This document shows, one piece after another, positions 20,033-60,270 of a DNA stretch of 64,000 bases; the stretch's first letter is position 1; each line of letters opens with the position of its first letter. The DNA is from Vicinamibacteria bacterium (GTDB lineage: Bacteria; Acidobacteriota; Vicinamibacteria; Marinacidobacterales; Marinacidobacteraceae). Position numbers and translations under genes: made by a program. Location of the stretch: positions 2,328,422-2,392,421 of the forward strand of contig OZ220470.1 in NCBI GenBank assembly GCA_965115855.1. The letters are read 5' to 3'. A model generated the notes under the pieces. That model worked only from the letters and a program-made list of their open reading frames with translations, ran no database searches and was not told the DNA's origin.

Positions 20033-23000
20033 TCACCAGCCGAGGGCGCCCTGGAGCGCGAGTCGCCGGTCCCGCGTTCCCATGACGCTCTCGCGCCGCG
20101 CCCCTTCGAGGTCCAGCCGGAAGAGCGGACCCAGCTGGTAGCGGGCGCCGAGCCGCAGGGCCCGGCCCATCTCCGCCATCTGGAGGCCCGCATACGGGGT
20201 CAGGACCCCGGCCAGGGGAAGCCCGAACCCGTGGCCGCCCTCCGCCGTCAGCCGCCGCTCCGCCCGCAACCCCGCCATCGGGGTCGGGGAGAACGCCGGG
20301 GTCCGGTCGAACATCTGCTGCAGGCCGCTCTCCGTGCCCCCCTGCGACGGCGCCACCTTCAGGAACGGACCCCGTCCCTCATCGCCGGGATCGAGGCTCA
20401 CCATCGCCCCCACGCCCCACTCACGGCGTTCCGTCTCGGCGTGCGTGACCAGCGCCCGGCTACGCACTTGCAATGTCAGTCCCGGGTCCCGCATCCGGTA
20501 CGCCACGCTTCCGCCGACCTCGACCCCCGCGCCCTCCACCGCGTCGCCCCGGTCGTACAGAACCCCCACCTCCAGCGCCGGCGTCAGCGTACCCGTGCCC
20601 AGCGTCCGCTCGTGCGAGCCTTCCAGCATCAACCGCAACCGGCTGGTGTGCGCCGTCAGGCCCTCGAGGCCCGACTCCGAGGCCGTGCTGAAGCGCGCGT
20701 ACGAACCCTCGCCCTTGACCGCCAGCCGGGTCATGCCCCCCGCCAGCAGATCCGCATCCCGGAACAGCACGCTCCGACCGCCCACCGCACCGCTCGCAAA
20801 CGACATCCCCGCGTCCCGCTTGTTCATTCCCGTCTCGGTCACTCGCACCTCGCCCCGACCGTAGCCCCCGCTCGCCCACAGGTTCGACCCGTCGGGCGCC
20901 AGCCACGCCAGGTAGGGGTGCGCCGAGGTCAGTCCCGCCTCGTAGATCCCGGCCACCGAACCGGTCTCGGCGGCGCCGCTCGCATCGAAGTCGCCGGTCG
21001 CGTGCGACACCACGATCCCCGCGAGGAAGTCCGAACCGATCCGCGCGTCCGCGCCCACGTGCGCGGACCACAGTCCCCCGTCCCACGAGACCTCACGGTC
21101 GGTCCCGGAAAGCGACAGCCGTCCGCCCCGGCCCCAGACGCCGATCGCCGGGAATCCGCCCTCCTCCTCTTCCTGGCCGAGCGTCATGCCGAACGCCGCC
21201 CCGTCCAGCACGTCGGCGAGCCGCAACGGCCGGTCGGTCCGCCCGCCGAATCCGGTCCGATCTCCTAACGCTCCCGTCCGGCCGTCGTGCCGCAGGTTGA
21301 GCACTCCTTCGGAAGAGGCGGACATCGGCATCGCGCCCAGCCGCAGCTCGCGCGACGCGAACCCCGCCGACACCGACTCGATCCGGTCGGCAACCGCCCC
21401 CAGCGTCTGCGTCGCGAACCCCGCCGCGAACTGCGGAAGGATCACCTCGTTCAACCGATTCGCACGACCCAGCGCCTCCGCCGACGTCGTGTTCCGCACC
21501 GTCACCGACACCGACTCCGCCGTCACCCCGCCGTAGTCCCCGCCGGACACCCGGTGGCTCACCGTCGCCCTCATGTCCGCCAGCGAGTCCTCGTCCTCCA
21601 CCCCGCTCACCGTCACCGTCTGCGGGGTGTCCCAGTTCGCGGCGGTAAAGGAGAGCGCCTCCGAGACCGTCGCCGCTCCCCCGTCGCTGCTCGCCGGGGT
21701 GACCGTCACCGGACCCGTCGGTTCGCTGGTGAGCACCACCGTGTAGGTCCCGCTTCCGTCCTCGTCCACCGTCAGTTCGGTCGGGGTCACCGTCACCCCC
21801 GCCTTGTCGTTGTCGGTCACCCGCACCGACACCGCATCGGCCTTCACCGAGTCGTAGTCCCCGCCCGAAACCTCGTGGGTCAGGGTCGCGGTATCCGCCA
21901 CCGCGTCGGCGTCCTCCGCCGCGCGGACCGTCACCGTCTGCGCCGTGTCCCAGTTCGCGGCGGTGAACCCGCGCGACGCCGGCGCCACCGTGATGTCCCC
22001 CGCCGCGCCAGCGATCGCCACCGTCACCTCCGCCGTCGGCTCGCTGGTCAGCGCCACCGTGTAGGTCCCGCTTCCCCCCTCGTCCACCATCAGTTCGGTC
22101 GGGGTCACCGCAACCCCCGCCTCGTCGTTCTCGGTCACCCGCACCGACACATCGGCGATCGAAACCGAACCGTAGCCCCCGCCCGACGCCTCGTGGGTCA
22201 AGGTGGCTGTGTCCGCCACCGCGTCGGCGTCCTCCGCCGCCCGGACCGTCACCGTCTGTGGCGTGTCCCAGTTCGCCGGGGTGAACGTCAACGACGACGG
22301 TGAAACCGTCACATCCCCGGACGCGCCCGACACCGTGATCGTGACGTTCCCCGAAGGACGCCGGTCCAGAACCACCGTGTAGACGGCGCCGCCGCCCTCC
22401 GACACCCGCAGCGTCGCCCGCGACACCGTCACGCCTTTCGTCCCCGTGGGAGTCGTCGAGCCGCCGCCGGAACCGCCACCACCTCCTCCGCCGCCACTGG
22501 CGGTCGGCGCCTGCGACGTCGCCGTTACCCGGATCACAATCTCCTCGGTGTCCGAGTTGCCGTTCCCGTCCGACGCCGTCACCTCCATCGTGTATGTCCC
22601 TACCGTTGTCGTCGTGAACATCAAACGCGCCTGGTTCAGCGCCGTGCCGCCGGGAATCGCCGGCGCCGTCTCGCCCGCCTTGCGCGTCCAGGCGTAGGTG
22701 ATCGGGTCGTTGTCCCCGTCCGTCGCCACCGCCGTGATGTCCACCGCCTGGCCGGCCTTCACTGTCCGGTTCGCGATCCCCGACAGCACCGGCGACTCGT
22801 CGTCATCCTCGATCGTCCCCGTCGCCGTCGCGTCCGTGATCGTCGTCCCCGCCGATGCATCGGACAGGGTCACCGTGAACGTCTCGTTGTTCTCGTCGAG
22901 ATCGTCGTTCGTCACCGACACCGTGACCGTCGCGCTGCCCGCGTTCGCCGCGACCGTCGCCGCGGTCGCCGGCGTCACCGCGGTGAAGTCCGTGCCCGCC

Positions 23001-24665
23001 GTCGCCGTGTCGCCGCTTTCCGCCGTCACCGTGTACTTGAACGACGCCTCCGACGAGGGCGCAGGAGAAGCCGTCACCGTGAACGTGAACGTCCCGCCCT
23101 CCGCCGCCGTCACGTCCCCGATGCTCAGCGAGGTCGGGACGTTCTTCAGCGTGCCGTCCGCCGTGCGGTCGGCCCCCCGCACATAGCCGGTCCCGTTGCG
23201 CAGGGTGATCCGGTAGGCCTCCGCGCCTTCCACCGTCGAGTCGAGGATCGTCGGGATCGTCACCGTCCCGGTCGTGCTCGCGGTGCTGCCGAAACTTGCG
23301 GTGAAGTTCCTCGGACCGAGCGAACCCCGTATGTCCGCCGCAGTGAAACCGTTCGAACTCCGCGCCGCCAGCCGCAGACGCACCTTCAGGTCTCCGGTCA
23401 GCGCCTTGTCCGACGTGACCGTCAGGCTGATCGCCGTCCCCTCGGTCACCGCCGCCGGATCATTCAGAAGCTGCAGGACCGGCGTCGTGTCGGTCACCGT
23501 CACGTCCACATCGTCGATACCGAGCTCGTTGCCGTAGTCGGCGTCGGAGCTCGCCGACGAATGCGTCAAGGTCGCCGTGTCGTCCTCCGCGTCCGCGTCC
23601 GTCCCCGCGTTCACCGTGATCGTCTGCGCCGTGTCCCAGTTGGATGTCGTGAAGGTCAGCGGCGAACCCGCCACCGTTACATCGCCCGACGCGCCGCCCA
23701 CCGTCACGGTCACGCTCGCCGAGGGTCTCCTGTTCAGCTTCACCGTATAGGTGTTGCTGCTCCCCTCTTCAACCGTCAGCGACGACGGCGAGATAGTCAC
23801 CCCGGCGGGAGGGTTCGGTGTCGCCGTCACCTCGTTGGACATGGGAGCAAGGATGGCGGTCGGGACACCCGGAGGGGGGGTGGTCGTGCGCCCGACCTGG
23901 AAGCTGTACGCGGTACCGTTGGTCAGACCCGTCACCGTGTGGGTTCGTTTTGTCTTCCCGCCGGGAATGTCGTACATGCTGCCGCTGCCCCCTCCGGCGC
24001 CTTTCTTCTGAAGGTACACCCAGGAGAGGAAGAACTCCGGGTCCGCATATGTCCAGTCAAGTCTCACCCGTCCGTCACCCGGCGTGGCGGAAAGGACGAT
24101 GGCGCTGGCCATCGGCGTCACGGTGACTGCATCCGAGACCACTCCGTAACCGACGTTGTTCACCGCGCGGATCTTGAAACTGTACGTTCTGCCGTTCCTC
24201 AGACCCGTCACCCGGTAACTCTCCGTCGTTGCGCTGGCCCCGGTCATGGTGATCCACGACCCGTAGCGCCCCGTGCCCGACTTCTGCCGGTAATCCCATC
24301 CGGTAATGCTGGGATCACTTGGAATCGCCCACGTCAACAATACGCTTCCAGAGCCCGGAGTGGCGCTGACTCTCGTTGGCTTGACAGGTACTTGCGCTTG
24401 CTGTCCGATGATACCGGCATCCCTCTGGTTGGTCCGAGCCAACCCGGCGGCGTTCCGTGCCCCCGCATCCGGCGCAAGGACGACGGCCAGCGAGATCGTA
24501 GTGAGTGCCGCGACTCGGCGGCGAGCGTTTCTTCTACCGGGCGCCCTCAGCCCCGCGTCTGGATTTCGGGGGGGGGGGGGGGGGTAGAGAGTCGCGTTGC
24601 GCCGGACCGAAACCAGCGGGGCCCAACACCCGCGTCACGCGCTGCGGCCTTGCTGTCACTTCCAT
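20033..24665 (-). CDS. large autotransporter (type Va) adhesin-like protein
   Basis: Built from FN3 domains, five ~100-aa passenger repeats and a C-terminal beta-barrel. The C-terminal ~300 aa match autotransporter beta-domain architecture and end in ...LALQGALGW. Passenger: 2 FN3 domains, then five repeats with signature NWDTxQTVTVxAxxDADxxDDTATLTH. A signal-peptide-like region RRRVAALTTISLAVVLAPDAGA lies upstream of the first annotated codon. The proposed true start is ATG 24665 with SD AGGAG 7 nt upstream, but it is out of frame at the current 17-nt homopolymer. Confidence 0.7.
24568..24584. repeat. G17 homopolymer (C17 on the coding strand) in the autotransporter leader
   Basis: Direct count of 17 consecutive G. 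The upstream ATG frame and the signal-peptide frame differ by 1 nt across the tract. Confidence 0.9.
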
Positions 24666-25159
24666 CACGAACTCCTGCGAATGGCCGAATAAAGGAGCAG
24701 GAACACTCCATCGGGGTTGGTGAACCACCCCAGGGGAATCACCGGTTTATGTAAAGGGGATTGTTTCCGAATCAGGAGTCGCAAATCAAGTGCGTGTATG
24801 AGCCCACGGGATATCCCGGTCGTTCACGACGAAAGGGGCCTCAACTCAATTTCGAGTGGATACGGGCGGGAAGCCCGTCGGGGGGCCGGGTGTCAAGGGC
24901 GGGCGTAGCCCGGCGGAGTGGACCCTTGACGCACGGACCCACGAGGGGCATGCTTGGTTCGGGTCGAAGGCAGCAGAATGCTGTTTTCGGCCCATCACTG
25001 CCTGGGAAACTCCTCATGGAGAACCAGATATTCGGAACCGCGCTCGGCTTGACGGGACTTTGGTTCGTCGAGGTTCCTCCCGCACCGTTTTCTTCCTCAT
25101 CTCCGGGAAATTCGACTTCCCAAGCTCAGCACCCATTTCGCCTAACCCACTCGAAATTC

Positions 25160-26598
25160 GGCTCTATTGAATTTCGAGTGGGTTATGCGAGGTGAGGGTT
25201 GAGCTTGGAGAAGTCGAGTTTTCCGGCGATAAGAAAGAAAACGGTGCGGATGGTGCGGAAGGAACGATACCCCCTGGCTTTCCGCTTGGCGGATTGGAAG
25301 AGGCCATTGAGGGCTTCTATGAACCCGTTGGTCTGGCGGGTTCGGGCCCACGCGGTGATGCCGTCGAAGTGTCTTCGGATCATCCGGGCGACGGCTTTCA
25401 TGGGTTCGATCCGGGATCGATTCACGTTGGTGCACCACTGCTGGAGCATGGCCCGCATGACATGGACTTGCTTGCGGTGGAGGATGGCACGGAGTTGCTC
25501 CCGGTACCGCCAAGCTCGAGTGGTGCGCTTCCCAGCGGTCTGTGCGATCAGCGCGTTGAGTGCGGCGCGTTGGTTACGGCTGAGGTGTGTCGGATTCTTG
25601 AGCAAGGTCCAGCGCATGCCCTTGATCCCCGGATCGACCCGCTGCTCGATGCGTCTGGTTTCGTCGAGGGCACTCGAGGCGTGGGCGACGACATGGAACT
25701 TGTCGAAAGTGATTTGGGCATGGGGCAAATGCTTCGCAACCCCCTTGATGAAAGCAGGGGACATGTCGATCGAGACGAACCGGATCGCTTCGGGAGCGCC
25801 ACCCTGTACCGCCAAGTTCCGGGCGAATTGTCCGACCGTGTCGGCCCCCCGGCCCTCCCCGACAAACAGCACCCGGCGCTTGCGGGCGTCGGCGGCAACG
25901 GTGACATAGGCGTGCCCCCGGGCCCGGGAGGTCTCGTCGATTGCGACGGCGCGAACGTCGCCCTGGTCGTCCTCCGCGGAGGCGAGTTCCACGTATTGGT
26001 TGCAGATGGTCTGAACCCGGTGTGGAGAAATCTTGTTCAACCGTGCGACCGCGGCGAAGGGCATTTCCCGACTCATGACGATCACCAACGCTTCGAAGAG
26101 CGCAGTGAACCCGGAGACCTGACCCGTCCAGGGCGTGGTGACCAGCGCGATCCGTCCGTCGGGCAGACGGACTCTCGGAACCCTCGCTACCACTTCGCAT
26201 TCATACTGGAAGAAGTTGAGGTGGCGATAGCGCTTGGTCTTGGTGTCGTGGATGGGGTGTGTACCTTCGTGGTCCTTGTGAGGAAAGCGGGCGCCACGCT
26301 GAAAGTCGATATGGATGATCAGCTTGCGATCACACTCGACAAACTTCACGCTTTCGACGAACCAAGGTTCGATGAGGCCAAGGGCGGTTGCGAAGATGCG
26401 GTGGATATCTGTCATGAGATGCTTCTCCTATGCAGAGATGGGCCGAAAAGCAGCATTCTGCCGCTTTTCGAGCCCGAACCAAGCATGCCCGTCGCGGGTC
26501 CGTGCGTCAAGGGTTCGCTCCGCCGGGCTACGCCCGCCCTTGACACCCGGCCCCCCGACGGGCTTCCCGCCCGTACCCACTCGAAATTGAGTTGAGGC
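25160..26598 (-). mobile_element. ISL3-family insertion sequence, copy 1 (1439 bp)
   Basis: Identical to the copy at 56000..57438. Imperfect ~24-bp terminal IRs (GGCTCTATTGAATTTCGAGTGGGT / GCCTCAACTCAATTTCGAGTGGGT). 8-bp TSD cgaaattc at 25152-25159 and 26599-26606. Confidence 0.85.
25183..26415 (-). CDS. ISL3-family transposase
   Basis: 410 aa, identical to the ORF at 56023..57255. Its conserved blocks match the ISL3 (IS1001/IS1096/IS1165-type) family. Confidence 0.85.
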   Translation of the reverse strand: MTDIHRIFATALGLIEPWFVESVKFVECDRKLIIHIDFQRGARFPHKDHEGTHPIHDTKTKRYRHLNFFQYECEVVARVPRVRLPDGRIALVTTPWTGQVSGFTALFEALVIVMSREMPFAAVARLNKISPHRVQTICNQYVELASAEDDQGDVRAVAIDETSRARGHAYVTVAADARKRRVLFVGEGRGADTVGQFARNLAVQGGAPEAIRFVSIDMSPAFIKGVAKHLPHAQITFDKFHVVAHASSALDETRRIEQRVDPGIKGMRWTLLKNPTHLSRNQRAALNALIAQTAGKRTTRAWRYREQLRAILHRKQVHVMRAMLQQWCTNVNRSRIEPMKAVARMIRRHFDGITAWARTRQTNGFIEALNGLFQSAKRKARGYRSFRTIRTVFFLIAGKLDFSKLNPHLA

Positions 26599-26624
26599 CG
26601 AAATTCAATAGAGCCCGAAAGGGG

Positions 26625-27130
26625 AACCCATGAAGACGCGCTCGAGGGAGCGGCATCTGGCCGCATCTCGGTATCCGGCGCGGAGACAACGGCCAGCGTG
26701 ATGGTGGCGCGTGCCGCGTTCCGGCGGTTCTCCTGCTGGGCGACCTCAACCCCATGTCTGGATTTCGGGGGGAGATATGCGTTCACGCGGTACGGGGAAC
26801 CATGTCGCTGCGCAGCCGGTTGTCATGACGGTGAATTTCCCGGATCGGCAGGCAGGAAGCGCGGATGCTCATTTGAGTAACGCCTCGGAGGGTAACACCG
26901 ACAAAGCGAAGCATGTTCTCCTGGTCAGCTTCATCGTGTCATGTCCCGCTCGCTCCCTCGTCCACCGCAAGTTCGGCCAGAGTGATCGTCACCGTGATCG
27001 TCGCGCTGGTCGCTTGTCTTGCGCAGCGATGCTACCCCCGGTCGCCGTCGCAACCGCCGTGAAGTCCGTGCCCTCGGTCGCCGATGGTCAGCAAAGTCGT
27101 ATCGTCGTTCAGACCGACGCACCACATCGC
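26625..27130 (-). pseudogene. decayed paralog of the autotransporter 5' module (leader with C6 tract plus passenger-like fragment)
   Basis: 26672-26790 is homologous to 24462-24600 and includes gtctggatttcgggggg. The ORF from GTG 26786 reads MNAYLPPKSRHGVEVAQQENRRNAARATITLAVVSAPD... straight through the C6 tract. 26800-27130 resembles passenger repeat DNA (accgccgtgaagtccgtgccc...) but is frame-broken. Confidence 0.35.
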
Positions 27131-27214
27131 TCCCGGGCGCGGGATCAGGGGCGCGAAGCGCACATCCCCGATCAGAACGCCACTGTGCGGTTCCTTCACC
27201 ATCCGACAGCAGGT

Positions 27215-28576
27215 TCACGCGCGGACCGCGCGTATCCGTTCGACGGTGCGTCGGAGCGCCGGCGTCACTCCCTCGCGGCGGGCAAGACCGCGCAGATCCC
27301 ATTCGGCGACCGTTCGCATGTCCATCCGCATCCGGCCGGAGAGCGAATCGAAGACCTGCTCGTAGCCGGCGCGGGCGCCTTCCTCGTCCCCCGCGGCCAG
27401 CCGCGCGATGGCGAGCAGCAATCCCTGCCGGGCCGAGCGGGACGGATCCTGCGAACGGGCCTGCTCGAAGAGCGTCACGGCTTCCTGGTGGCGCCCCCTC
27501 AGGAACACCGCGTAGGCCAGGTTGTACCTGCCGAACACGAAATCGGGGGCGAGTTCCAGAGCCCGCCGGAATGCCGCCTCGGCCTCCGGAAGCCGCCCCA
27601 GATCGCGCAGGGTGACCCCGAGGTTGGAAACGAAGCTGTGGTTGAGCGGATCCAGCGCCGAAGCCCGCTCGAGGGGTTCCAGCGCTTCGGCGGTCCGCTC
27701 CAGTTCCCCGAGGGCCGCCCCCGCATTGGCCCAGGCAGAGGCGAACTCGGGCAAGGCCCGCGCGGCCCGCCAGAACGCATCCAGCGCCCCCTCGAGATCG
27801 TCGAGCCGGATCAGTGTCTTGCCGAGTTCGAAATGAGCCGCCGCGAACTCGGGGTCGAGGTCCGCCGCCCGGCGGAAGGCCTCCGCCGCCCGGGCCGGTT
27901 CGCGGCGTTCCGCATGGGCGCAACCGGCGAGAAGCTGGCCGACCGCGTTGTCCGGCTCTTCCCGGGCCGCGCGGAGGGAGGCTTCGGTCCGGATCCCGGG
28001 TTTCGGGGCGTGGAGGCCGATACGGCGAAGCGCCTCCGGCGTCCGGGCCGCCTCGAGGTCCCCGGCGTCGGGTCCCGAAACCGCCGGCGGGGCCGCCGGG
28101 GCCCCGGGCGGCCGTCGCACTTCGAAATGACAGGCGGCGCCGCGGCCGCCGAGTATCTCGCCCGCCCGGAGCAGAAGTTCGCCCTCGTCGGCGGTGGCGA
28201 GCAGGTTCCGCTGTCCGACGCCGAGGTGCTGGAGGCGGGCAAGGAGATAGGACGGAGTTGCGATCACCGCGACCGGGGGCGCTCCCCGGGCGGCCACCCG
28301 ACAGGGGAAGGCCCGGTGCACCTCGGGAAGCCAGACCGTGCCGGCGTCCTCGGGGATCGTTGGCAGCCGATGAAGATCGAGAGCCAGATCCTCCGTGGTC
28401 GGCGGCGTCACCGCGTCCCCGGCCGGCGGAGCGGCGCCGGCGGTTCCGAGGGTCAGCTCCCAGCGCTTGCCTCCCGGGATCGGCCGGTGCGCCGGCCAGC
28501 CGCCGCCCGTGTCCCTTTCCGAGGCTCTTCCGGCCTCCGCGACCGGAATCTCCACCGGAATCCACTCCCGTGCCAT
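27215..28576 (-). CDS. TPR repeat-containing protein
   Basis: C-terminal ~250 aa are tandem TPRs. ATG 28576 was chosen because the upstream extension of the ORF overlaps the convergent gene 28627..29287. Confidence 0.65.
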   Translation of the reverse strand: MAREWIPVEIPVAEAGRASERDTGGGWPAHRPIPGGKRWELTLGTAGAAPPAGDAVTPPTTEDLALDLHRLPTIPEDAGTVWLPEVHRAFPCRVAARGAPPVAVIATPSYLLARLQHLGVGQRNLLATADEGELLLRAGEILGGRGAACHFEVRRPPGAPAAPPAVSGPDAGDLEAARTPEALRRIGLHAPKPGIRTEASLRAAREEPDNAVGQLLAGCAHAERREPARAAEAFRRAADLDPEFAAAHFELGKTLIRLDDLEGALDAFWRAARALPEFASAWANAGAALGELERTAEALEPLERASALDPLNHSFVSNLGVTLRDLGRLPEAEAAFRRALELAPDFVFGRYNLAYAVFLRGRHQEAVTLFEQARSQDPSRSARQGLLLAIARLAAGDEEGARAGYEQVFDSLSGRMRMDMRTVAEWDLRGLARREGVTPALRRTVERIRAVRA

Positions 28577-35694: not shown

Positions 35695-35771
35695 CGGGGC
35701 GTGGCGCAGTCTGGCAGCGCGCCTGCTTTGGGAGCAGGAAGCCGGAGGTTCGAATCCTTCCGCCCCGACCA
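35695..35771 (+). tRNA. tRNA-Pro (anticodon TGG), CCA encoded
   Basis: Hand-folded cloverleaf: 7-bp acceptor CGGGGCG/CGCCCCG, anticodon stem CCTGC/GCAGG with loop TTTGGGA, T-loop GGTTCGAATCC. Confidence 0.85.
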
Positions 35772-35808
35772 GGTGATGGGCGCCCGTCATGGCGCGAGGC
35801 GTCGCAAC

Positions 35809-35881
35809 GCGCCAGTAGCTCAGTGGACAGAGCGGCGGCCTTCTAAGCCGATGGTCGGGGGTTCAAGTCCTCCCTGGCGCG
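35809..35881 (+). tRNA. tRNA-Arg (anticodon TCT)
   Basis: Acceptor GCGCCAG/CTGGCGC, D-stem GCTC/GAGC, anticodon loop CTTCTAA, T-stem GGGGG/CCTCC with TTCAAGT loop. Confidence 0.85.
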
Positions 35882-35895
35882 CCGGCGCACCGGCT

Positions 35896-35968
35896 GGTGG
35901 ATGTAGCTCAATGGCAGAGCACCGGATTGTGGTTCCGGGGGTTGGGGGTTCGAGTCCCCTCATCCACC
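35896..35968 (+). tRNA. tRNA-His (anticodon GTG) with extra 5' G(-1)
   Basis: Acceptor GTGGATG/CATCCAC preceded by G. Anticodon stem CCGGA/TCCGG with loop TTGTGGT. Confidence 0.8.
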
Positions 35969-47630: not shown

Positions 47631-49066
47631 CCGGGATCGTCTTCGGCGTCTACCTCGCCACGATCTTCCTGATCGGGTGGGTGGCGCTCCGCCGCACGCG
47701 AAACGAGAGCGATTACTGGATTGCCGGGGGCCGGCTCGGCTGGTTCCTCGGGGGGGCGACGCTGGCCGCCACCCACGCGAGCGCCGGAACCTACATCGGG
47801 ACCGTGGGAGTGATCCACGCGGTGGGGTGGGAATTCGCCTGGCTCGTCCTGTTCATCCCCCTGAGCTACTGGTTCATGGCGGGGGCGCTGGCGCCCCGCT
47901 TCGCCCGCACGCGGGAACTCACCCTGCCGGCATTTCTCGAGCGCCGCTACTACAGCCGCCGCGCCCGCGCCCTCGCCGCGGTGGTGATCCTCATCGCCAC
48001 CACCGTGTACATCCAGGCGCAGGTCCTCGCCGGCGGGCTCATCGCCCAGACCGTGTTCGGCATCCCGCCGACCTGGGGCATGGCCGTCTTCACCGTGATC
48101 CTGCTGGCCTATACCGCGGTCGGCGGCATGGTGGCGGTGGTCTGGACCGACCTGGTGCAGCTGGTGGTCATGGTCGTCGGCGCGCTGATCGCGGTTCCCA
48201 TGGTCTGGCGGATACTGGATGGCCCGGCGGCCCTGTTCGCCGCCGTCGAGACCCTGCGGCCGGATGCCTTCGCGTTCGGGCAGCTGCCCGGCCTGTTGCT
48301 GTTCACGATGGGCATCTCGTTCCTGCTGGGGGGAATCGCCACCCCCGAGAAGCTGGTGCGGCTCCATGCGATGCGCGACCAGCGCTCCATCCGCCGGGGA
48401 CTGCTGCTGGCCATGGCGGTCGCCTCCGGCGTGAATCTGCTGGTGTTCCTGCTGGCGCTCGCGGCGATGGGGCTCTTTCCGGTGTTGCCGAGCGGGGATC
48501 TCGCCATGCCGCTGATCGCCTCGGCGGCGCTGCCCCCGGTGCTCGGAACGATCCTGCTCGCTGCCATCGTGTCGGCGATCATGTCCACGGTGGATTCGCT
48601 GCTGCTGGTGGCCGGATCGGCCCTTGCGCACGACATCCTCGGTGCGTTGCGCCCGGGCGCCTCCGACCGGGCCCGACTCGCCGCCGCCCGACTCGGCATC
48701 CTGCTGGTCGGGGCGGCGCCGCTGGTCCTGATCCTGAGCGGCGTGGGAGAGGGGGATCTGGTGCAGTTCATCGTGCTGTTCTTCACCGCGATCATGGCCA
48801 GCGCCTTCTTCGTGCCGGTAGTGGTGGGCGTCTACTGGCGGCGACTGACCCGCGAAGGGGCGGTGGCGGCGATGGTCGCGGGAGTGGCCACCGTATTCGG
48901 ATGGCAGGCGGATATCCTGCCGTGGACCGGGTTCGGACCAGACTTGGTGCATCCGGCGGCGCCGGGAGTGCTGGTCTCGCTGCTCGTCGGCGTGTTGGTG
49001 AGCCGAGCGACCCCGCCGCCGCCGGAGTCCGCGCTCGCGCCGTATTTCGGAGGGACGGATCGATGA
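47626..49066 (+). CDS. sodium:solute symporter (SSS family)
   Basis: ~480 aa, 13 TM helices, with SSS conserved blocks. Start codon is ambiguous (non-ATG, CTG/ATC region at 47626-47640). Confidence 0.85.
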
Positions 49067-49437
49067 AGGTGAAGGGACTCGGAGTGCGGGTTGTCGGCGG
49101 CATGGGCCTGCCGCCCTTCGGCGTGATCGTGAGCCGGGCGCCACTGCCGGAGTCCGCGCTCGCGCCATATTTCGGAGGGACGGATCGATGAAGGTGAGGG
49201 GACGCGGGGTGCGGGTTATCGGCGGCATGGGCCTGCCGCCTGTCGGCGTGATCGTGAGGCGGGCACCGCTGCCGGAGTCCGCGCTCGCACCGTATTTCGG
49301 AGGGACGGGTCGATGAAGGTGAGGGGACTCGGGGTGCGGGTTATCGGCGGCATGGATCTGCCGCCTGTCGGCGTGATCGTGAGCCGGGCGCCGCTGCCGG
49401 AGTCCGCGCTCCGGCCCTGTTTCGGGAGGACCGGCCG
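49063..49437 (+). repeat. 3 tandem copies of a 125-bp unit spanning the SSS-stop/SDR-start junction
   Basis: Period exactly 125 bp, starting at 49063, 49188, 49313 and 49438. Units are diverged, not identical. Each carries GGAGGG, an ATG and a 42-aa ORF whose TGA overlaps the next ATG. Confidence 0.9.
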
Positions 49438-50229
49438 ATGAAGCTCGAGGGACGTGGAGTTCTCGTCACGGGCGGCGCCCGCGGCATGGGCCTGCTGCTC
49501 GCGCGCATGGCGCAGGAGCGCGGAGCCCGGGTGGCGATCTGGGATACCCACGACAGCGCCCTCGCTGCTGCCAGCGGGGAACTCGGCGGCGCGGTCGCTG
49601 CCGACGCGGTGGACGTTGGGTGTCCGGAAGCGGTGGGTCTCGCAGCCGAACGGCTTCCCTTCGCGGTGGACGTGCTCGTGAACAACGCCGGCGTGGTCTC
49701 CGGCAAGCGCTTCCCCGAGCTGACGCCGGAGGAGGTCCGCCGTACCCTGCGCGTGAATCTGGAAGCGTTGTTCTGGACTACCCGCGCGTTTCTTCCCGGC
49801 ATGGTGCGCCGTGGTGAGGGCCATCTCGTGACCATGGCCTCCGCCGGCGGTCTTGTCGGCGTCCCGGCGCTCTCCGACTACTGCGCGTCCAAGTTCGGAG
49901 CGGTCGGGTTCCACGAATCGGTTCGCGCCGAACTGCGGCACACGGCGCCCGGCATCGGGACCACCCTGGTGTGCCCCTTCTTCGTGAACACCGGAATGTT
50001 CGCGGGAGTGCGGACCCGGTTCCCGTTCCTGCTCCCGATTCTCGATCCGGGCGCGGTCGCCGCGGCGACTGTCCGCGCCATCGAGCGGAATCGGGCGACG
50101 GTGGTCCTCCCCTGGTTCGTCCACTCGCTCAAGCTGCTCCGGCTGCTGCCGTCGGCCTGGCTGGATCCGATCGCCGCCTTTTTCGGCATCCACGCTTCGA
50201 TGAGAAGCTTCACCGGCCGCCGACGTTGA
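49438..50229 (+). CDS. short-chain dehydrogenase/reductase (SDR)
   Basis: TGGARGMG cofactor motif, NNAG, and catalytic YxxxK (YCASK). Confidence 0.85.
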   Translation: MKLEGRGVLVTGGARGMGLLLARMAQERGARVAIWDTHDSALAAASGELGGAVAADAVDVGCPEAVGLAAERLPFAVDVLVNNAGVVSGKRFPELTPEEVRRTLRVNLEALFWTTRAFLPGMVRRGEGHLVTMASAGGLVGVPALSDYCASKFGAVGFHESVRAELRHTAPGIGTTLVCPFFVNTGMFAGVRTRFPFLLPILDPGAVAAATVRAIERNRATVVLPWFVHSLKLLRLLPSAWLDPIAAFFGIHASMRSFTGRRR

Positions 50230-55404: not shown

Positions 55405-55999
55405 CCACGGGCTCTCAGAACGGTCGGAATTTCGAAACACCTCGATGGGATTTCCGTGTCTGCTTCGGAGTTCTTTCTTTTGAGTTTCGAATCGCTACTG
55501 AACATGTACTGAAACAGGACCCACAAACGCGCACTCTGAAATGCGAACGGCTTGGGTCAACCGAATCAATGTCATTGCTTTCCTTCGAGTTGGAGTTTCG
55601 TGCGCAAATATTCCATTCCTCTTGGACCCTTTATGCGGTTACAGCTCCCACATAGAAGTTGAAGATTTTCCAAGTGATCTGTCCCTCCGTATGCTCTTGC
55701 GATAATGTGGTCAATTTCGAGATTGCGCATCTCGAAGTGCACACCACAACCTTCGCAATCACCCTCTTGTTGTCCATAAAGAGTCGCCTTGTGGCAACTT
55801 GGAGGAGGGAGAGATCCCAAATCGGTTCTGAGCGGCACATCCGTTCTATGAGCGACTCTCCCGAAAACCTCACCCCGAGCCTTTATTCGTTCAACAACAA
55901 GGTCCCCTGCCTTGGGAGAAAGGTCTATCCCTGCCCATTTTCGAGCCAACTCGTTGGCAGCAACCATGGTCGTGGCACATCCACAGAATGGATCCAAAA

Positions 56000-57438
56000 G
56001 GCTCTATTGAATTTCGAGTGGGTTATGCGAGGTGAGGGTTGAGCTTGGAGAAGTCGAGTTTTCCGGCGATAAGAAAGAAAACGGTGCGGATGGTGCGGAA
56101 GGAACGATACCCCCTGGCTTTCCGCTTGGCGGATTGGAAGAGGCCATTGAGGGCTTCTATGAACCCGTTGGTCTGGCGGGTTCGGGCCCACGCGGTGATG
56201 CCGTCGAAGTGTCTTCGGATCATCCGGGCGACGGCTTTCATGGGTTCGATCCGGGATCGATTCACGTTGGTGCACCACTGCTGGAGCATGGCCCGCATGA
56301 CATGGACTTGCTTGCGGTGGAGGATGGCACGGAGTTGCTCCCGGTACCGCCAAGCTCGAGTGGTGCGCTTCCCAGCGGTCTGTGCGATCAGCGCGTTGAG
56401 TGCGGCGCGTTGGTTACGGCTGAGGTGTGTCGGATTCTTGAGCAAGGTCCAGCGCATGCCCTTGATCCCCGGATCGACCCGCTGCTCGATGCGTCTGGTT
56501 TCGTCGAGGGCACTCGAGGCGTGGGCGACGACATGGAACTTGTCGAAAGTGATTTGGGCATGGGGCAAATGCTTCGCAACCCCCTTGATGAAAGCAGGGG
56601 ACATGTCGATCGAGACGAACCGGATCGCTTCGGGAGCGCCACCCTGTACCGCCAAGTTCCGGGCGAATTGTCCGACCGTGTCGGCCCCCCGGCCCTCCCC
56701 GACAAACAGCACCCGGCGCTTGCGGGCGTCGGCGGCAACGGTGACATAGGCGTGCCCCCGGGCCCGGGAGGTCTCGTCGATTGCGACGGCGCGAACGTCG
56801 CCCTGGTCGTCCTCCGCGGAGGCGAGTTCCACGTATTGGTTGCAGATGGTCTGAACCCGGTGTGGAGAAATCTTGTTCAACCGTGCGACCGCGGCGAAGG
56901 GCATTTCCCGACTCATGACGATCACCAACGCTTCGAAGAGCGCAGTGAACCCGGAGACCTGACCCGTCCAGGGCGTGGTGACCAGCGCGATCCGTCCGTC
57001 GGGCAGACGGACTCTCGGAACCCTCGCTACCACTTCGCATTCATACTGGAAGAAGTTGAGGTGGCGATAGCGCTTGGTCTTGGTGTCGTGGATGGGGTGT
57101 GTACCTTCGTGGTCCTTGTGAGGAAAGCGGGCGCCACGCTGAAAGTCGATATGGATGATCAGCTTGCGATCACACTCGACAAACTTCACGCTTTCGACGA
57201 ACCAAGGTTCGATGAGGCCAAGGGCGGTTGCGAAGATGCGGTGGATATCTGTCATGAGATGCTTCTCCTATGCAGAGATGGGCCGAAAAGCAGCATTCTG
57301 CCGCTTTTCGAGCCCGAACCAAGCATGCCCGTCGCGGGTCCGTGCGTCAAGGGTTCGCTCCGCCGGGCTACGCCCGCCCTTGACACCCGGCCCCCCGACG
57401 GGCTTCCCGCCCGTACCCACTCGAAATTGAGTTGAGGC
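56000..57438 (-). mobile_element. ISL3-family insertion sequence, copy 2 (1439 bp), inserted in the MTase-HNH gene
   Basis: 100% identical to 25160..26598. 8-bp TSD atccaaaa at 55992-55999 and 57439-57446. The frame bookkeeping (1447 nt, congruent to 1 mod 3) fits the flanking ORF frames. Confidence 0.9.
56023..57255 (-). CDS. ISL3-family transposase (copy 2)
   Basis: Identical 410-aa ORF. Confidence 0.85.
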   Translation of the reverse strand: MTDIHRIFATALGLIEPWFVESVKFVECDRKLIIHIDFQRGARFPHKDHEGTHPIHDTKTKRYRHLNFFQYECEVVARVPRVRLPDGRIALVTTPWTGQVSGFTALFEALVIVMSREMPFAAVARLNKISPHRVQTICNQYVELASAEDDQGDVRAVAIDETSRARGHAYVTVAADARKRRVLFVGEGRGADTVGQFARNLAVQGGAPEAIRFVSIDMSPAFIKGVAKHLPHAQITFDKFHVVAHASSALDETRRIEQRVDPGIKGMRWTLLKNPTHLSRNQRAALNALIAQTAGKRTTRAWRYREQLRAILHRKQVHVMRAMLQQWCTNVNRSRIEPMKAVARMIRRHFDGITAWARTRQTNGFIEALNGLFQSAKRKARGYRSFRTIRTVFFLIAGKLDFSKLNPHLA

Positions 57439-57710
57439 ATCCAAAACAAGGTCGCCCACGTCGGATGTGGAACTGATGATCCGGTGCAGAAGCGCGAGCG
57501 GTTTCTGTGTCGGAAAGCCGGTACGCTCCTTGGAAGACCCGGGAATGATCGGAATATCCCATACATCTCGCATTGGCATTCCGAGTGATTTTTTGTCTCC
57601 CGTGATTTTCTTGGATTTGGTAATCGGATCGAGGATTTGCGACCTCCCCTTGAATACGCGAAGAGTGGACGTTGATAACTCCTCGTAGCCCTGATTCCAA
57701 GACCATCTTA

Positions 57711-57726
57711 CCCCCCCCCCCCCCCC
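57711..57726. repeat. C16 homopolymer (G16 in the mRNA; poly-Gly codons) inside the MTase-HNH reading frame
   Basis: Direct count of 16 C. The upstream and downstream MTase frames differ by 1 nt across the tract. Confidence 0.9.
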
Positions 57727-58548
57727 GTATACCAAAAGAGAACGTCGTGCATTCGCTGAAATCGGCGCTGCTTTGACGGCCACCGCTTGTACGACCATAT
57801 GATTTCGTTCTGGAATGCGTCTTTCCCAAATACTGAATCCATGACCATTTTCAGGGGATGACTCATCGTGGGGTCACAGTGAAGCCACACTGATCCTGTC
57901 GGTTTCAGTATTCTTCGAATTTCCAAAATGCGCGGCGCCATATAGGCGAGATAGGATTTGTCGCTATCTGTAATGGCTGCCAAGATAATCTTGTGGAGAG
58001 ATGGATGCTTGGCTTCAATTAGATTGACCCACTCAGCATCTACATCGGAGAGCGACCACGTATCTTTAAAAGCAGCCCCTGCTGCCGTAGAACCAATAGG
58101 TGCGGCGTAGTCGGACTCGGAGTTGAAAGGAGGATCCAAATAGATTAGATCCACTGACTCGGAATTCATGCCTCGCATAATTGGGAGGTTGTCTCCGGTC
58201 CATACAGTCTTGTCGGCCCAATTCGGTTTGCCCATATCGAGAGGATATAGGAAACCTCACGCCATCGACACGGCACTCACCGATGGCGGCGTTTACGCTG
58301 CCTGCGAAGGACTTCGTGGCGCACGCCAAAGTGGATCGTTTTGATCGACTGCGAGGAATCGGCCTGCCTGCATGGTCCGGCAAGGGGTCGGTCCGTGCGT
58401 GCGGGATCGCCACGAGGTCAAGCGGATCGACGAGGAACTTTACGTCGGAACCAGTCGGGCTTCCACGGTGCTCTCAATGGGCATAAGCTTCCTCCGTACG
58501 CGCCGGAACTGCGCAAGGAGGTCTCTTTTGGGAAGACGAACAGCGGGA

Positions 58549-60104: not shown

Positions 60105-60180
60105 GCGCCTGTAGCTCAGTGGATAGAGCGCTTGCCTCCGGAGCAAGAAGTCAGAGGTTCGAGTCCTCTCAGGCGTACCA
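60105..60180 (+). tRNA. tRNA-Arg (anticodon CCG), CCA encoded
   Basis: Acceptor GCGCCTG/CAGGCGT, D-arm TAGCTCAGTGGATAGAGC, anticodon stem CTTGC/GCAAG with loop CTCCGGA, T-loop GGTTCGAGTCC. Confidence 0.85.
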
Positions 60181-60196
60181 GTGTTTTCCGCGGGGC

Positions 60197-60270
<74 letters not shown>

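What the first reader, a model, noticed from the sequence alone, without database searches (positions are those of the whole stretch)
24462..27130. Duplicated autotransporter leader module with different homopolymer lengths (C17 against C6) on either side of the IS cluster
About 130 bp around the tract (24462-24600) recurs at 26672-26790 (...acggccagcg[a/t]gat.gt.g.g.gtgccgcg ... gtctggatttcgggggg ...), but with only 6 G. In the right copy the frame from a GTG start reads without interruption MNAYLPPKSRHGVEVAQQENRRNAARATITLAVVSAPD.... This shows that in this family an upstream start is normally fused through the tract to the signal peptide, and it independently supports the ON/OFF model for the left copy. 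Beyond the right copy (26800-27130) lies frame-broken DNA resembling passenger-repeat sequence (accgccgtgaagtccgtgccc...). The IS relic inserted between the two modules; ancestrally they were ~330 bp apart. Possibly the remnant of a tandem paralog, or a cassette for recombinational switching of the autotransporter 5' end.
Basis: seen in the sequence. Interest (0 to 1): 0.5.

Follow-up and report, generated by a model that had tools for sequence, protein, structure and literature searches.

The report
Relic copy of phase-variable gene leader
About 105 bp encoding the start of a large surface-protein gene (poly-C run plus signal peptide) is repeated 2.2 kb away as a broken leftover of an old gene copy, later separated from the live gene by two nested insertion sequences. 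The live gene belongs to a large family that appears to be switched on and off by length changes in that poly-C run.

Summary
Window 24467-24573 matches 26673-26772 (blastn E 2e-15, 76% over 107 columns, one 7-nt indel), with G17 on one side and G6 on the other. A frame-broken Calx-beta-like fragment lies at 26942-27112.

The left copy is the 5' module of an intact type Va autotransporter: fn3/Calx-beta/PKD passenger plus a PF03797 barrel. Homologues in many uncultivated genomes (nearest named: Ca. Marinacidobacterium, Acidobacteriota) share one architecture: promoter, SD+ATG, short leader ORF, poly-C (C10-C35), conserved linker, signal peptide.

About one third read in frame. Two ~99% identical paralogous 5' regions differ only in C14 (OFF) versus C18 (ON) and a 12-nt repeat. 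This is classic slipped-strand translational phase variation.

Here C17 is OFF; C16 or C19 would fuse ATG 24665 to the signal peptide.

The right copy is a truncated, non-functional sister relic. Its own ATG is out of frame at C6, and before the IS arrived its signal-peptide-frame ORF stopped two codons past the IS site.

The IS cluster is a 330-bp MITE-like ISL3 derivative (TSD CGAAAGGG) with a full 1439-bp ISL3 element nested in its end (TSD CGAAATTC).

I found no support for a recombinational cassette system. Known mechanism, new host family; the duplication itself is ordinary gene decay.

The parts
20033..24442 (-). Main ORF of the autotransporter as listed (TTG start, 1469 aa). It has an fn3, Calx-beta and PKD/Ig passenger and a C-terminal autotransporter beta-barrel, and ends ...GALGW. 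The frame stays open upstream to the TGA at 24635-24637. The public annotation (P0001) starts only at internal Met66.
   Evidence: (PF03797 39.6 bits against a cut-off of 26)
24467..24567 (-). Left (live) leader module downstream of the tract. It contains the linker GAAATCCAGACGCGGGGCTGAGG, a CTG at 24550 where paralogue P0008 has its start Met, and the signal peptide RRNARRRVAALTTISLAVVLAPDAGA.
24568..24584 (-). Poly-C tract (C17 on the coding strand, G17 on +). C17 is OFF; C16 or C19 is ON.
24534..24676 (-). Upstream leader ORF: SD AGGAG (24676-24672), ATG (24665-24663), 27 codons to the tract. With C17 it gives a 43-aa peptide ending at TAG 24536-24534. The peptide before the tract is homologous to the P0080 leader.
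24830..24837 (.). Target-site duplication CGAAAGGG of the MITE-like element, left copy. The right copy is at 26616-26623.
24838..25159 (.). MITE-like internally deleted ISL3 derivative, main part. It totals 330 bp together with 26607-26615. It matches IS positions 1438-1195 (85%) and 90-1 (87%) and is inverted relative to the full IS.
25160..26598 (-). Full-length ISL3-family IS, 1439 bp. Transposase at 25183-26415 (410 aa). IRs are GGCTCTATTGAATTTCGAGTGGGT and GCCTCAACTCAATTTCGAGTGGGT. The 8-bp TSD CGAAATTC lies at 25152-25159 and 26599-26606. It is 100% identical to the copy at 56000-57438 and is nested in the terminus of the MITE-like element.
26607..26615 (.). Displaced last 9 bp (AATAGAGCC) of the MITE-like element, followed by its TSD at 26616-26623.
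26673..26772 (-). Right (relic) leader module: C6 tract (26767-26772), linker GAAATCCAGACATGGGGTTGAGG, and a shortened signal-peptide-like stretch NRRNAARATITLAVVSAPD. It has a 7-nt deletion relative to the left copy. It shares with the left copy the loss of the family GTG, a 9-nt shorter h-region and 'APD'.
26773..26828 (-). Possible remnant of the right copy's own leader ORF (ATG 26828-26826, 18 codons to the tract). At C6 it reads MTTGCAATWFPVPRERISPPEIQTWG* (OFF). Homology to family leaders is weak (the cgcgNgaac motif only).
26942..27112 (-). Calx-beta / repeat-domain pseudogene fragment. It collapses segments that are more than 1.1 kb apart in the intact gene, lacks about 36 codons inside the Calx-beta domain, and carries a frameshift and stops. 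It lies upstream of the right leader on the coding strand.
27215..28555 (-). TPR-repeat protein gene, the upstream neighbour, intact. Its orthologue is 77% identical in Ca. Marinacidobacterium sp. OZ241856.1, but synteny beyond this gene is not conserved.

Best explanation
The left copy is the working 5' module of a type Va autotransporter that is probably controlled by translational phase variation. Translation starts at ATG 24665, which has an AGGAG Shine-Dalgarno sequence, and runs 27 codons into a poly-C tract. The tract length decides whether the ribosome continues into the signal peptide and the 1,500-aa protein. C16 or C19 is ON. With the assembled C17 it stops after 43 aa (OFF).

The right copy is a dead sister of this module. 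It is left over from an earlier local duplication of the gene or of its 5' end. It has a short C6 tract, an extra 7-nt deletion and no passenger. The Calx-beta fragment further upstream is a second, deletion-collapsed relic. Because its order is wrong for a single gene, at least two former copies, or one rearranged copy, decayed here.

Later, an ISL3-derived MITE inserted into the ~300-bp spacer. Very recently a full ISL3 element inserted into that MITE's terminus.

Shown: the repeat, the relics, the IS anatomy, the frames, and tract variability across the family. Inferred: that slippage actually switches this gene, and the order of the decay events.
For: Repeat and relics:
- Both are significant (E 2e-15, 1.5e-13, 3e-10).
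- Left and right share derived characters absent from seven homologous leaders: the family GTG is lost (about 8 nt shorter), GAAATCCAGAC follows the tract, the h-region is 9 nt shorter, and both read 'APD'. They are therefore each other's closest relatives.
- The right copy is dead. ATG 26826 with C6 gives a 26-aa peptide. The GTG-initiated frame has no SD. Before the IS, the ORF stopped two codons past the insertion site.
- The passenger relic is a collapsed mosaic.

IS history:
- The 8-bp TSDs are CGAAAGGG (MITE) and CGAAATTC (full IS).
- The full IS is 100% identical to the copy at 56000-57438, whereas the MITE is about 85% identical to it.

Autotransporter identity: PF03797 at 39.6 bits, with an fn3/Calx-beta/PKD passenger.

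Phase variation in the family:
- The eight full-length modules (WIN_left plus L002, L003, L004, L029, L030, L031, L033) carry SD+ATG, an open leader ORF, poly-C of C10-C35 and a conserved linker plus signal peptide. Four are ON and four are OFF by 1 nt.
- A promoter-like TTGATA-N17-TATCAT lies about 40 nt upstream of the leader ATG in L003 and L029. The tract is therefore inside the translated leader.
- L029 and L033 are paralogues on one contig. Their ~800-bp 5' regions are about 99% identical. The only indels are C14 (OFF) versus C18 (ON) and a 12-nt repeat present 3 versus 2 times.
- Among the listed homologues with this leader, 25 start at 'xGALGRTARR', about 15 read through poly-Pro and 2 start at the tract. 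So about one third are in frame.

This locus: the in-silico tract series gives ON only at C16 and C19.

Precedent: the NalP and MspA autotransporters are phase-variable through coding poly-C tracts of 6-15 bp (PMC3723659).
Against: - There are no population or long-read data for this locus, so switching here is inferred.
- The left module has lost the family's GTG and is about 8 nt shorter between tract and signal peptide. Its ON frame therefore reads a different linker (RNPDAGLRAPG) from the family's GRGAEPV, and the gene could be freshly inactivated.
- No sigma-70-like promoter was found in 24400-27300 by the simple scan.
- Long homopolymers are error-prone in long-read assemblies, so C17 could really be C16.
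- The one-third in-frame ratio would also arise if the tract were untranslated.
- The order of relics (passenger fragment upstream of the leader relic) needs more than one event.
- No syntenic genome was available to show the ancestral arrangement.
- The spacer shows no similarity to the gene's 3' end.
Confidence: 0.65

Rival explanations
1. Silent-cassette system. The right leader and the passenger fragment are stored donor cassettes used to swap the 5' end or passenger segments of the expressed autotransporter by gene conversion, in the manner of pilE/pilS.
For: The repeats are direct and on the same strand as the expressed gene. The gene belongs to a multigene family, with at least two further full-length paralogues in the same genome (P0006, P0008).
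Against: - The right copy covers only the non-variable leader.
- Identity is 76%, and the longest exact match is 17 nt (CCCCCCGAAATCCAGAC).
- Recombination there would delete the live gene's SD and ATG.
- The passenger fragment is 170 bp, frameshifted, stop-containing and internally deleted.
- There is only one copy of each in 64 kb.
Confidence: 0.04
2. The left gene is itself a recent pseudogene, or is expressed independently of the tract. On this reading, loss of the family GTG and the ~8-nt deletion broke the ancestral ON frame. With C17, the ATG frame is still the ancestral '...PPPKSRRGAE' frame. The tract state would then be irrelevant, and any expression would come from weak CTG 24550 or TTG 24442 initiation.
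For: - The left leader's ATG frame at C17 aligns with the ON frame of P0080 up to 'GAE' and then hits TAG.
- There is no ATG, GTG or TTG in the main frame between TGA 24635 and TTG 24442.
- The public annotation starts at Met66, without a signal peptide.
Against: - The 4.4-kb ORF is fully open with all domains intact.
- The same 'RAPGR' linker variant occurs in the full-length paralogue P0008 and in the right relic, so it is old and has been propagated.
- A single-C loss restores a complete fusion.
Confidence: 0.2
3. The poly-C tract acts on transcription or on mRNA structure, as a promoter spacer or 5'-UTR element. The real start would be the GTG (or CTG/TTG) after the tract, and the upstream 'leader ORF' would be incidental.
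For: - Gene callers start 25 homologues at the GTG of 'GALGRTARR'.
- A G-rich stretch (GCGGGG) lies 8-9 nt upstream of that GTG.
- One third in frame is also what chance would give.
Against: - A promoter-like site and a strong SD+ATG lie 90-140 nt upstream of the tract in L003 and L029.
- The ATG frame is open up to the tract in all loci examined.
- Upstream leader peptides are partly conserved, for example MTKxIGxxGM...SASRARExELVV.
- Folding of the leader RNA is no more stable than shuffled sequence, with z +1.3 and +1.5.
- The left copy has no GTG at all.
Confidence: 0.1

Closest known systems
Neisseria meningitidis NalP and MspA (AusI) autotransporters
   Same: Type Va autotransporters with a poly-C tract inside the 5' coding sequence. 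Tract length sets ON or OFF; in NalP the tract is 6-15 bp and is ON at 7, 10 or 13 C (PMC3723659). The frame logic here is the same (ON at C16 or C19).
   Different: - The passenger here is fn3/Calx-beta/PKD repeats rather than a protease.
- The tract lies before the signal peptide, in a short leader ORF.
- Tracts are longer, up to C35.
- The family is a large multigene one, in uncultivated relatives of Acidobacteriota.
- There is no experimental evidence.
Neisseria opa gene family (CTCTT repeats in the signal-peptide coding region)
   Same: A multigene family of outer-membrane proteins in which each copy carries its own repeat tract in the leader-coding region and switches independently, so copies in one genome are in different states. 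Here, L029 is OFF and L033 is ON on one contig. This comparison rests on established knowledge, not on a test run here.
   Different: The repeat is a homopolymer rather than a pentamer. The proteins are autotransporters rather than 8-stranded Opa barrels.
Bordetella pertussis homopolymeric tracts in autotransporter and fimbrial genes (bapC, tcfA, fim promoters)
   Same: A high-GC genome with poly-C/G tracts affecting surface-protein genes, accompanied by IS-driven rearrangement and pseudogene formation (own knowledge, not tested here).
   Different: No sequence relationship. The IS family differs (ISL3 here), and in the fim genes the tracts act in promoters.
pilE/pilS-type silent cassette systems
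   Same: Truncated, promoterless homologous fragments lie near an expressed surface-protein gene.
   Different: The fragments here are degenerate, few, cover the invariant leader, and lack the conserved flanks needed for gene conversion.
ISL3-family insertion sequences and their MITE-like deletion derivatives
   Same: DDE_Tnp_ISL3 transposase (E 1e-66). Terminal IRs are about 24 bp and begin GGCTCT. TSDs are 8 bp. There is an internally deleted derivative that keeps both ends.
   Different: Nothing unusual, except that the full copy is nested in the last 9-17 bp of the derivative's terminus.

Membership tests
Type Va (classical) autotransporter | C-terminal autotransporter beta-barrel domain | tested here: met
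   PF03797 matches residues 57-256 of the last 422 aa, E 6.5e-10, 39.6 bits against a cut-off of 26. The protein ends in an aromatic residue (W).
Type Va (classical) autotransporter | N-terminal Sec signal peptide preceding a passenger domain | tested here: inconclusive
   The in-frame stretch RRNARRRVAALTTISLAVVLAPDAGA has n-, h- and c-region character and aligns with the family leader GRTARRLKAGLAALFLIALAAALAPQDAQAQ. No signal-peptide predictor was available. It is only translated if the tract is C16 or C19, or if CTG is used.
Simple-sequence-repeat translational phase variation (contingency locus) | Repeat tract inside the translated 5' region, downstream of a bona fide start | tested here: met
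   AGGAG, 6 nt, then ATG 24665, with 27 open codons to C17. The same layout is seen in seven homologous loci, with a promoter-like site upstream of the ATG in two of them.
Simple-sequence-repeat translational phase variation (contingency locus) | Changes of tract length by 1-2 units toggle between the full-length ORF and early termination | tested here: met
   In-silico series C14-C20: the ORF is open only at C16 and C19. The other lengths stop after 38-44 aa.
Simple-sequence-repeat translational phase variation (contingency locus) | Tract length polymorphism between otherwise near-identical sequences | tested here: met
   Met for the family: L029 has C14 and L033 has C18 within about 800 bp of ~99% identity. 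It could not be tested for this very locus, because no second strain or reads were available.
Simple-sequence-repeat translational phase variation (contingency locus) | Reversible ON/OFF switching of protein expression at high frequency | not testable with these tools
   This needs read-level heterogeneity or an experiment.
Silent-cassette recombinational antigenic variation | Several promoterless cassettes homologous to the variable part of the expressed gene, bounded by conserved segments long enough for gene conversion | tested here: not met
   There is one leader relic (invariant part, 76% identity, longest exact run 17 nt) and one 170-bp frame-broken passenger relic. No other copies are present in 64 kb.
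ISL3-family insertion sequence | DDE_Tnp_ISL3 transposase, terminal inverted repeats, 8-bp target duplication | tested here: met
   PF01610 E 1.2e-66, plus the HTH and Zn-ribbon domains. IRs and the TSDs CGAAATTC and ATCCAAAA are confirmed for the two identical copies.

The most novel reading that the evidence does not exclude
The window samples an undescribed contingency-gene system. It would be a large family of fn3/Calx-beta autotransporters in uncultivated marine relatives of Acidobacteriota. Each member would carry a portable 5' module: promoter, SD-ATG, short leader, poly-C, 'GRGAEPV' linker, then GTG and signal peptide.

The module could give three expression states:
- a full fusion (ON);
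- termination at the conserved TGA 4 nt before the GTG, with possible re-initiation (low expression);
- OFF.

Leader relics such as the right copy would then be footprints of recombination or deletion seeded at the fragile poly-C tract, which shuffles modules between paralogues.
Probability: 0.15. Interest if true: 0.6.

Novelty: new member of a known kind. Interest (0 to 1): 0.33.

Why it matters
The duplicated leader on its own is ordinary gene decay, and the IS cluster is a routine nested insertion.

What is worth keeping is the context this finding exposed:
- Slipped-strand phase variation of surface proteins is known mainly from host-adapted pathogens. Here it appears as a conserved, family-wide design in many uncultivated 2-5 Mb genomes related to Ca. 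Marinacidobacterium (Acidobacteriota).
- Tracts reach C35, and paralogues in one genome sit in different states.
- A second long tract lies in a DNA methyltransferase gene in the same window.

Together these suggest that such organisms diversify their cell surface stochastically.

There is also a practical point. Gene callers mis-annotate OFF copies: the start is placed at the GTG or at an internal Met, and the signal peptide is lost. In addition, homopolymer errors in long-read assemblies can flip the inferred state.

Tried and rejected
- **Paralogue DNA from the same genome.** The look-up of encoding contigs had no record for P0001, P0006 or P0008. The leaders of the two other full-length paralogues in this genome could therefore be seen only as proteins.
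- **Genome-contig scan with the barrel domain.** It returned only two loci, both from Ca. Marinacidobacterium sp.. The source genome is not in that collection.
- **JGI metagenome scans.** I tried a leader-peptide alignment and the conserved 21-mer. The first gave nothing; the second gave 24 hits that all proved to be chance matches.
- **Synteny test for an ancestral tandem paralogue.** The TPR orthologue (77% identity, L032) has entirely different neighbours, so this was uninformative.
- **Spacer versus the gene's 3' end.** I tested whether the spacer between the two leaders keeps the 3' end or terminator of a decayed gene. It shows no similarity to the 3' end or downstream region of the intact gene.
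- **RNA-structure role for the poly-C leader.** Folds are no more stable than shuffles, and there is no Rfam family in the region.
- **Link between the poly-G tracts and the IS ends.** Both long tracts lie about 250-270 bp outside an IS end. I rejected a link: the flanks are unrelated, and the second tract sits inside a methyltransferase ORF.
- **Promoter scan of 24400-27300.** No sigma-70-like site passed the threshold.
- **Literature.** I found no paper on Marinacidobacterium, or on phase-variable autotransporters in Acidobacteria or sponge symbionts.

Full report
**Observation**

The window is 67% GC. On the minus strand it carries a 1469-codon ORF at 20033-24442. Upstream of that ORF on the coding strand is a C17 run, which reads as G17 at 24568-24584 on the + strand.

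The segment 24467-24573 recurs at 26673-26772. MAFFT and blastn agree on about 76% identity over 107 columns with one 7-nt gap. The blastn E-value within the window is 2e-15. The second copy has only C6, at 26767-26772.

A search for the tract-flank motif and a sensitive blastn of the leader found no third copy in the 64 kb.

- 26982-27083 matches 22911-23007 (E 1.5e-13).
- 26921-26993 matches two repeat units of the gene (E 3e-10 and 3e-9).
- blastx recovers Calx-beta motifs.

**What the gene is**

The passenger hits fn3, Calx-beta, PKD-like and Ig-like models. The last 422 residues hit the autotransporter beta-domain PF03797 above its curated cut-off (39.6 bits against 26). The protein ends in W. 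This is a type Va autotransporter.

An identical protein exists in the public collection on a 3,016,700-bp contig. There it is annotated only from internal Met66 (1404 aa), without any signal peptide. Two full-length paralogues, P0006 and P0008, lie on the same contig.

**The family leader**

The N-termini of the 120 best homologues fall into two main forms:
- 25 start at 'M-GALGRTARRLKAGLAALFLIALAAALAPQDAQAQ'.
- About 15 start 20-50 residues further upstream. They read through a poly-proline run of 3-11 P into 'xSGRGAEPV-GALGRTARR...'.

I obtained DNA for seven homologous loci: L002, L003, L004, L029, L030, L031 and L033. All show the same module:
- a Shine-Dalgarno sequence plus ATG;
- an open leader of 18-35 codons;
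- a poly-C tract of C13, C17, C10, C14, C12, C35 and C18 respectively;
- a conserved linker ccgggcgcggggctgaRccgGTGggcgcc;
- the signal peptide.

The 'M' of the first form is the GTG of this linker.

In L003 and L029 a promoter-like TTGATA-N17-TATCAT (10 of 12 matches) lies about 40 nt upstream of the leader ATG. The tract is therefore inside the transcribed and translated leader.

Four loci are in frame (L002, L003, L031, L033). Three are out of frame by one base (L004, L029, L030), and in those the gene caller fell back on the GTG.

The most telling comparison is L029 against L033. They are two paralogues on one contig, with about 800 bp of promoter and 5' sequence about 99% identical. The only indels are C14 (OFF) versus C18 (ON) and a 12-nt repeat present three versus two times.

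This is the signature of a hypermutable tract acting as a translational switch. The same mechanism is documented for the NalP and MspA autotransporters (PMC3723659).

Folding of the leader RNA gives no sign of a structured element. Rfam has nothing in the region.

**The left copy in this light**

It has AGGAG, then 6 nt, then ATG at 24665. Twenty-seven open codons follow, and their peptide aligns with the leader of P0080. Then comes the C17 tract.

With C17 the frame ends at TAG 24536-24534 after 43 aa. With C16 or C19 it runs straight into RRNARRRVAALTTISLAVVLAPDAGA and the whole protein.

The left copy differs from the family consensus. The GTG is gone, and the linker is about 8 nt shorter. 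Its ON frame is therefore shifted by one relative to the family. Paralogue P0008 begins 'MRAPGR...' exactly where the left copy reads 'LRAPGR' from CTG 24550.

I consider the gene OFF but switchable. I cannot exclude that it is freshly disabled, or that the assembled C17 is off by one.

**The right copy**

It shares with the left copy every derived feature that separates the left copy from the seven other leaders: GAAATCCAGAC after the tract, loss of the GTG, a 9-nt shorter hydrophobic core, and 'APD'. The two are therefore sister sequences from a local duplication, not imports from another paralogue.

The right copy is not functional:
- Relative to the left copy it lacks 7 more nt.
- Its own upstream ATG (26826) is out of frame at C6.
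- Once the IS sequences are removed, that frame stops two codons beyond the insertion point (...SSWVPLSS*), with no passenger.

The right copy therefore does not itself demonstrate the fused architecture. The homologues do.

**The passenger relic**

The relic at 26942-27112 lies upstream of the right leader on the coding strand, directly after the intact TPR gene (27215-28555). It is a collapsed mosaic:
- About 36 codons inside the Calx-beta domain are missing.
- The Calx-beta end abuts the start of a repeat domain that is more than 1.1 kb away in the live gene.
- It carries a frameshift and stops.

Its position is wrong for it to belong to the same former gene as the right leader. At least two decayed copies, or one rearranged copy, are needed to explain it.

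I could not recover the ancestral arrangement. The closest genome with the TPR orthologue (77% identity, Ca. Marinacidobacterium sp.) has different neighbours. The spacer keeps no trace of a gene 3' end.

**The IS cluster**

25160-26598 is a complete 1439-bp ISL3-family element. Its transposase scores E 1e-66. It is identical to the copy at 56000-57438, and its 8-bp duplication is CGAAATTC.

It sits inside the terminus of a 330-bp internally deleted derivative of the same IS, formed by 24838-25159 plus 26607-26615. That derivative is 85-87% identical to the IS ends, lies in inverted orientation, and is flanked by the duplication CGAAAGGG.

The order of events is:
1. leader duplication (about 20-24% divergence);
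2. MITE insertion (about 15% divergence from the IS);
3. very recent insertion of the full IS (0% divergence from its twin).

**Cassette hypothesis**

A recombinational switching system would need several conserved donors covering the variable part of the gene. Here there is one degenerate leader relic and one degenerate passenger relic. The longest exact match is 17 nt. Recombination at that site would remove the live gene's own start. I give this reading about 4%.

**Verdict**

The finding is a real duplication, and it is best explained as pseudogene debris beside a live gene. The mechanism it hints at is genuine and well supported at the family level, but it is of a known kind.

The wider occurrence of this leader module in uncultivated relatives of Acidobacteriota seems undescribed in the literature I could search. 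It is the part that deserves follow-up.

Noticed in passing
window 57711-57726 (context 57268-58235, minus strand): A second long homopolymer, C16 on + and G16 on the coding strand, lies inside a DNA methyltransferase gene (PF01555). The gene is split into two frames exactly at the tract: the N-part is 58235-57708 and the C-part is 57798-57268. It sits in a low-GC (54-57%) island and looks like a phase-variable methyltransferase.
   Followed up: partly
window 55572-57446: The same methyltransferase gene is also cut by the second ISL3 copy (56000-57438, TSD ATCCAAAA). Its 3' remainder, fused to an HNH nuclease domain, continues at 55997-55572.
   Followed up: partly
L029 1046-1081 and L033 (aligned): The leader ORF of two paralogues begins with a 12-nt tandem repeat, ATGACACAGGCT, present three versus two times. 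Each unit contains an ATG, so this is a second, in-frame, variable repeat at the start codon.
   Followed up: partly
L031 about 1244-1278: A C35 tract encodes 11 consecutive prolines in an in-frame (ON) family member (P0017). This is far longer than typical phase-variable tracts and would probably depend on EF-P for translation.
   Followed up: no
L001 1666-3560: In Ca. Marinacidobacterium sp., another family member is 5'-truncated. Its ORF starts inside the passenger, directly next to a 551-aa ORF on the opposite strand that may be a transposase. This would be IS-mediated decay of family members in a second genome.
   Followed up: no
window 20033-24442 (public protein P0001): The public annotation of this gene starts at internal Met66 and so lacks the signal peptide. 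This is a gene-calling consequence of the OFF tract. Homologues called from the linker GTG are probably mis-started in the same way.
   Followed up: yes
window 24694-24709, minus strand: A terminator-like hairpin, GGAGTGTTCCTGCTCC followed by TTTATTCGG, lies about 20 nt upstream of the SD of the live gene. It may be the terminator of a vanished upstream gene, or just a chance match.
   Followed up: no
window 49016-49476: A tandem array with a 125-bp period: three overlapping 211-nt copies at 85-92% identity. I did not examine it.
   Followed up: no
window 35695-35968 and 60105-60270: Clusters of three and two tRNA genes. Nothing unusual was noted.
   Followed up: no
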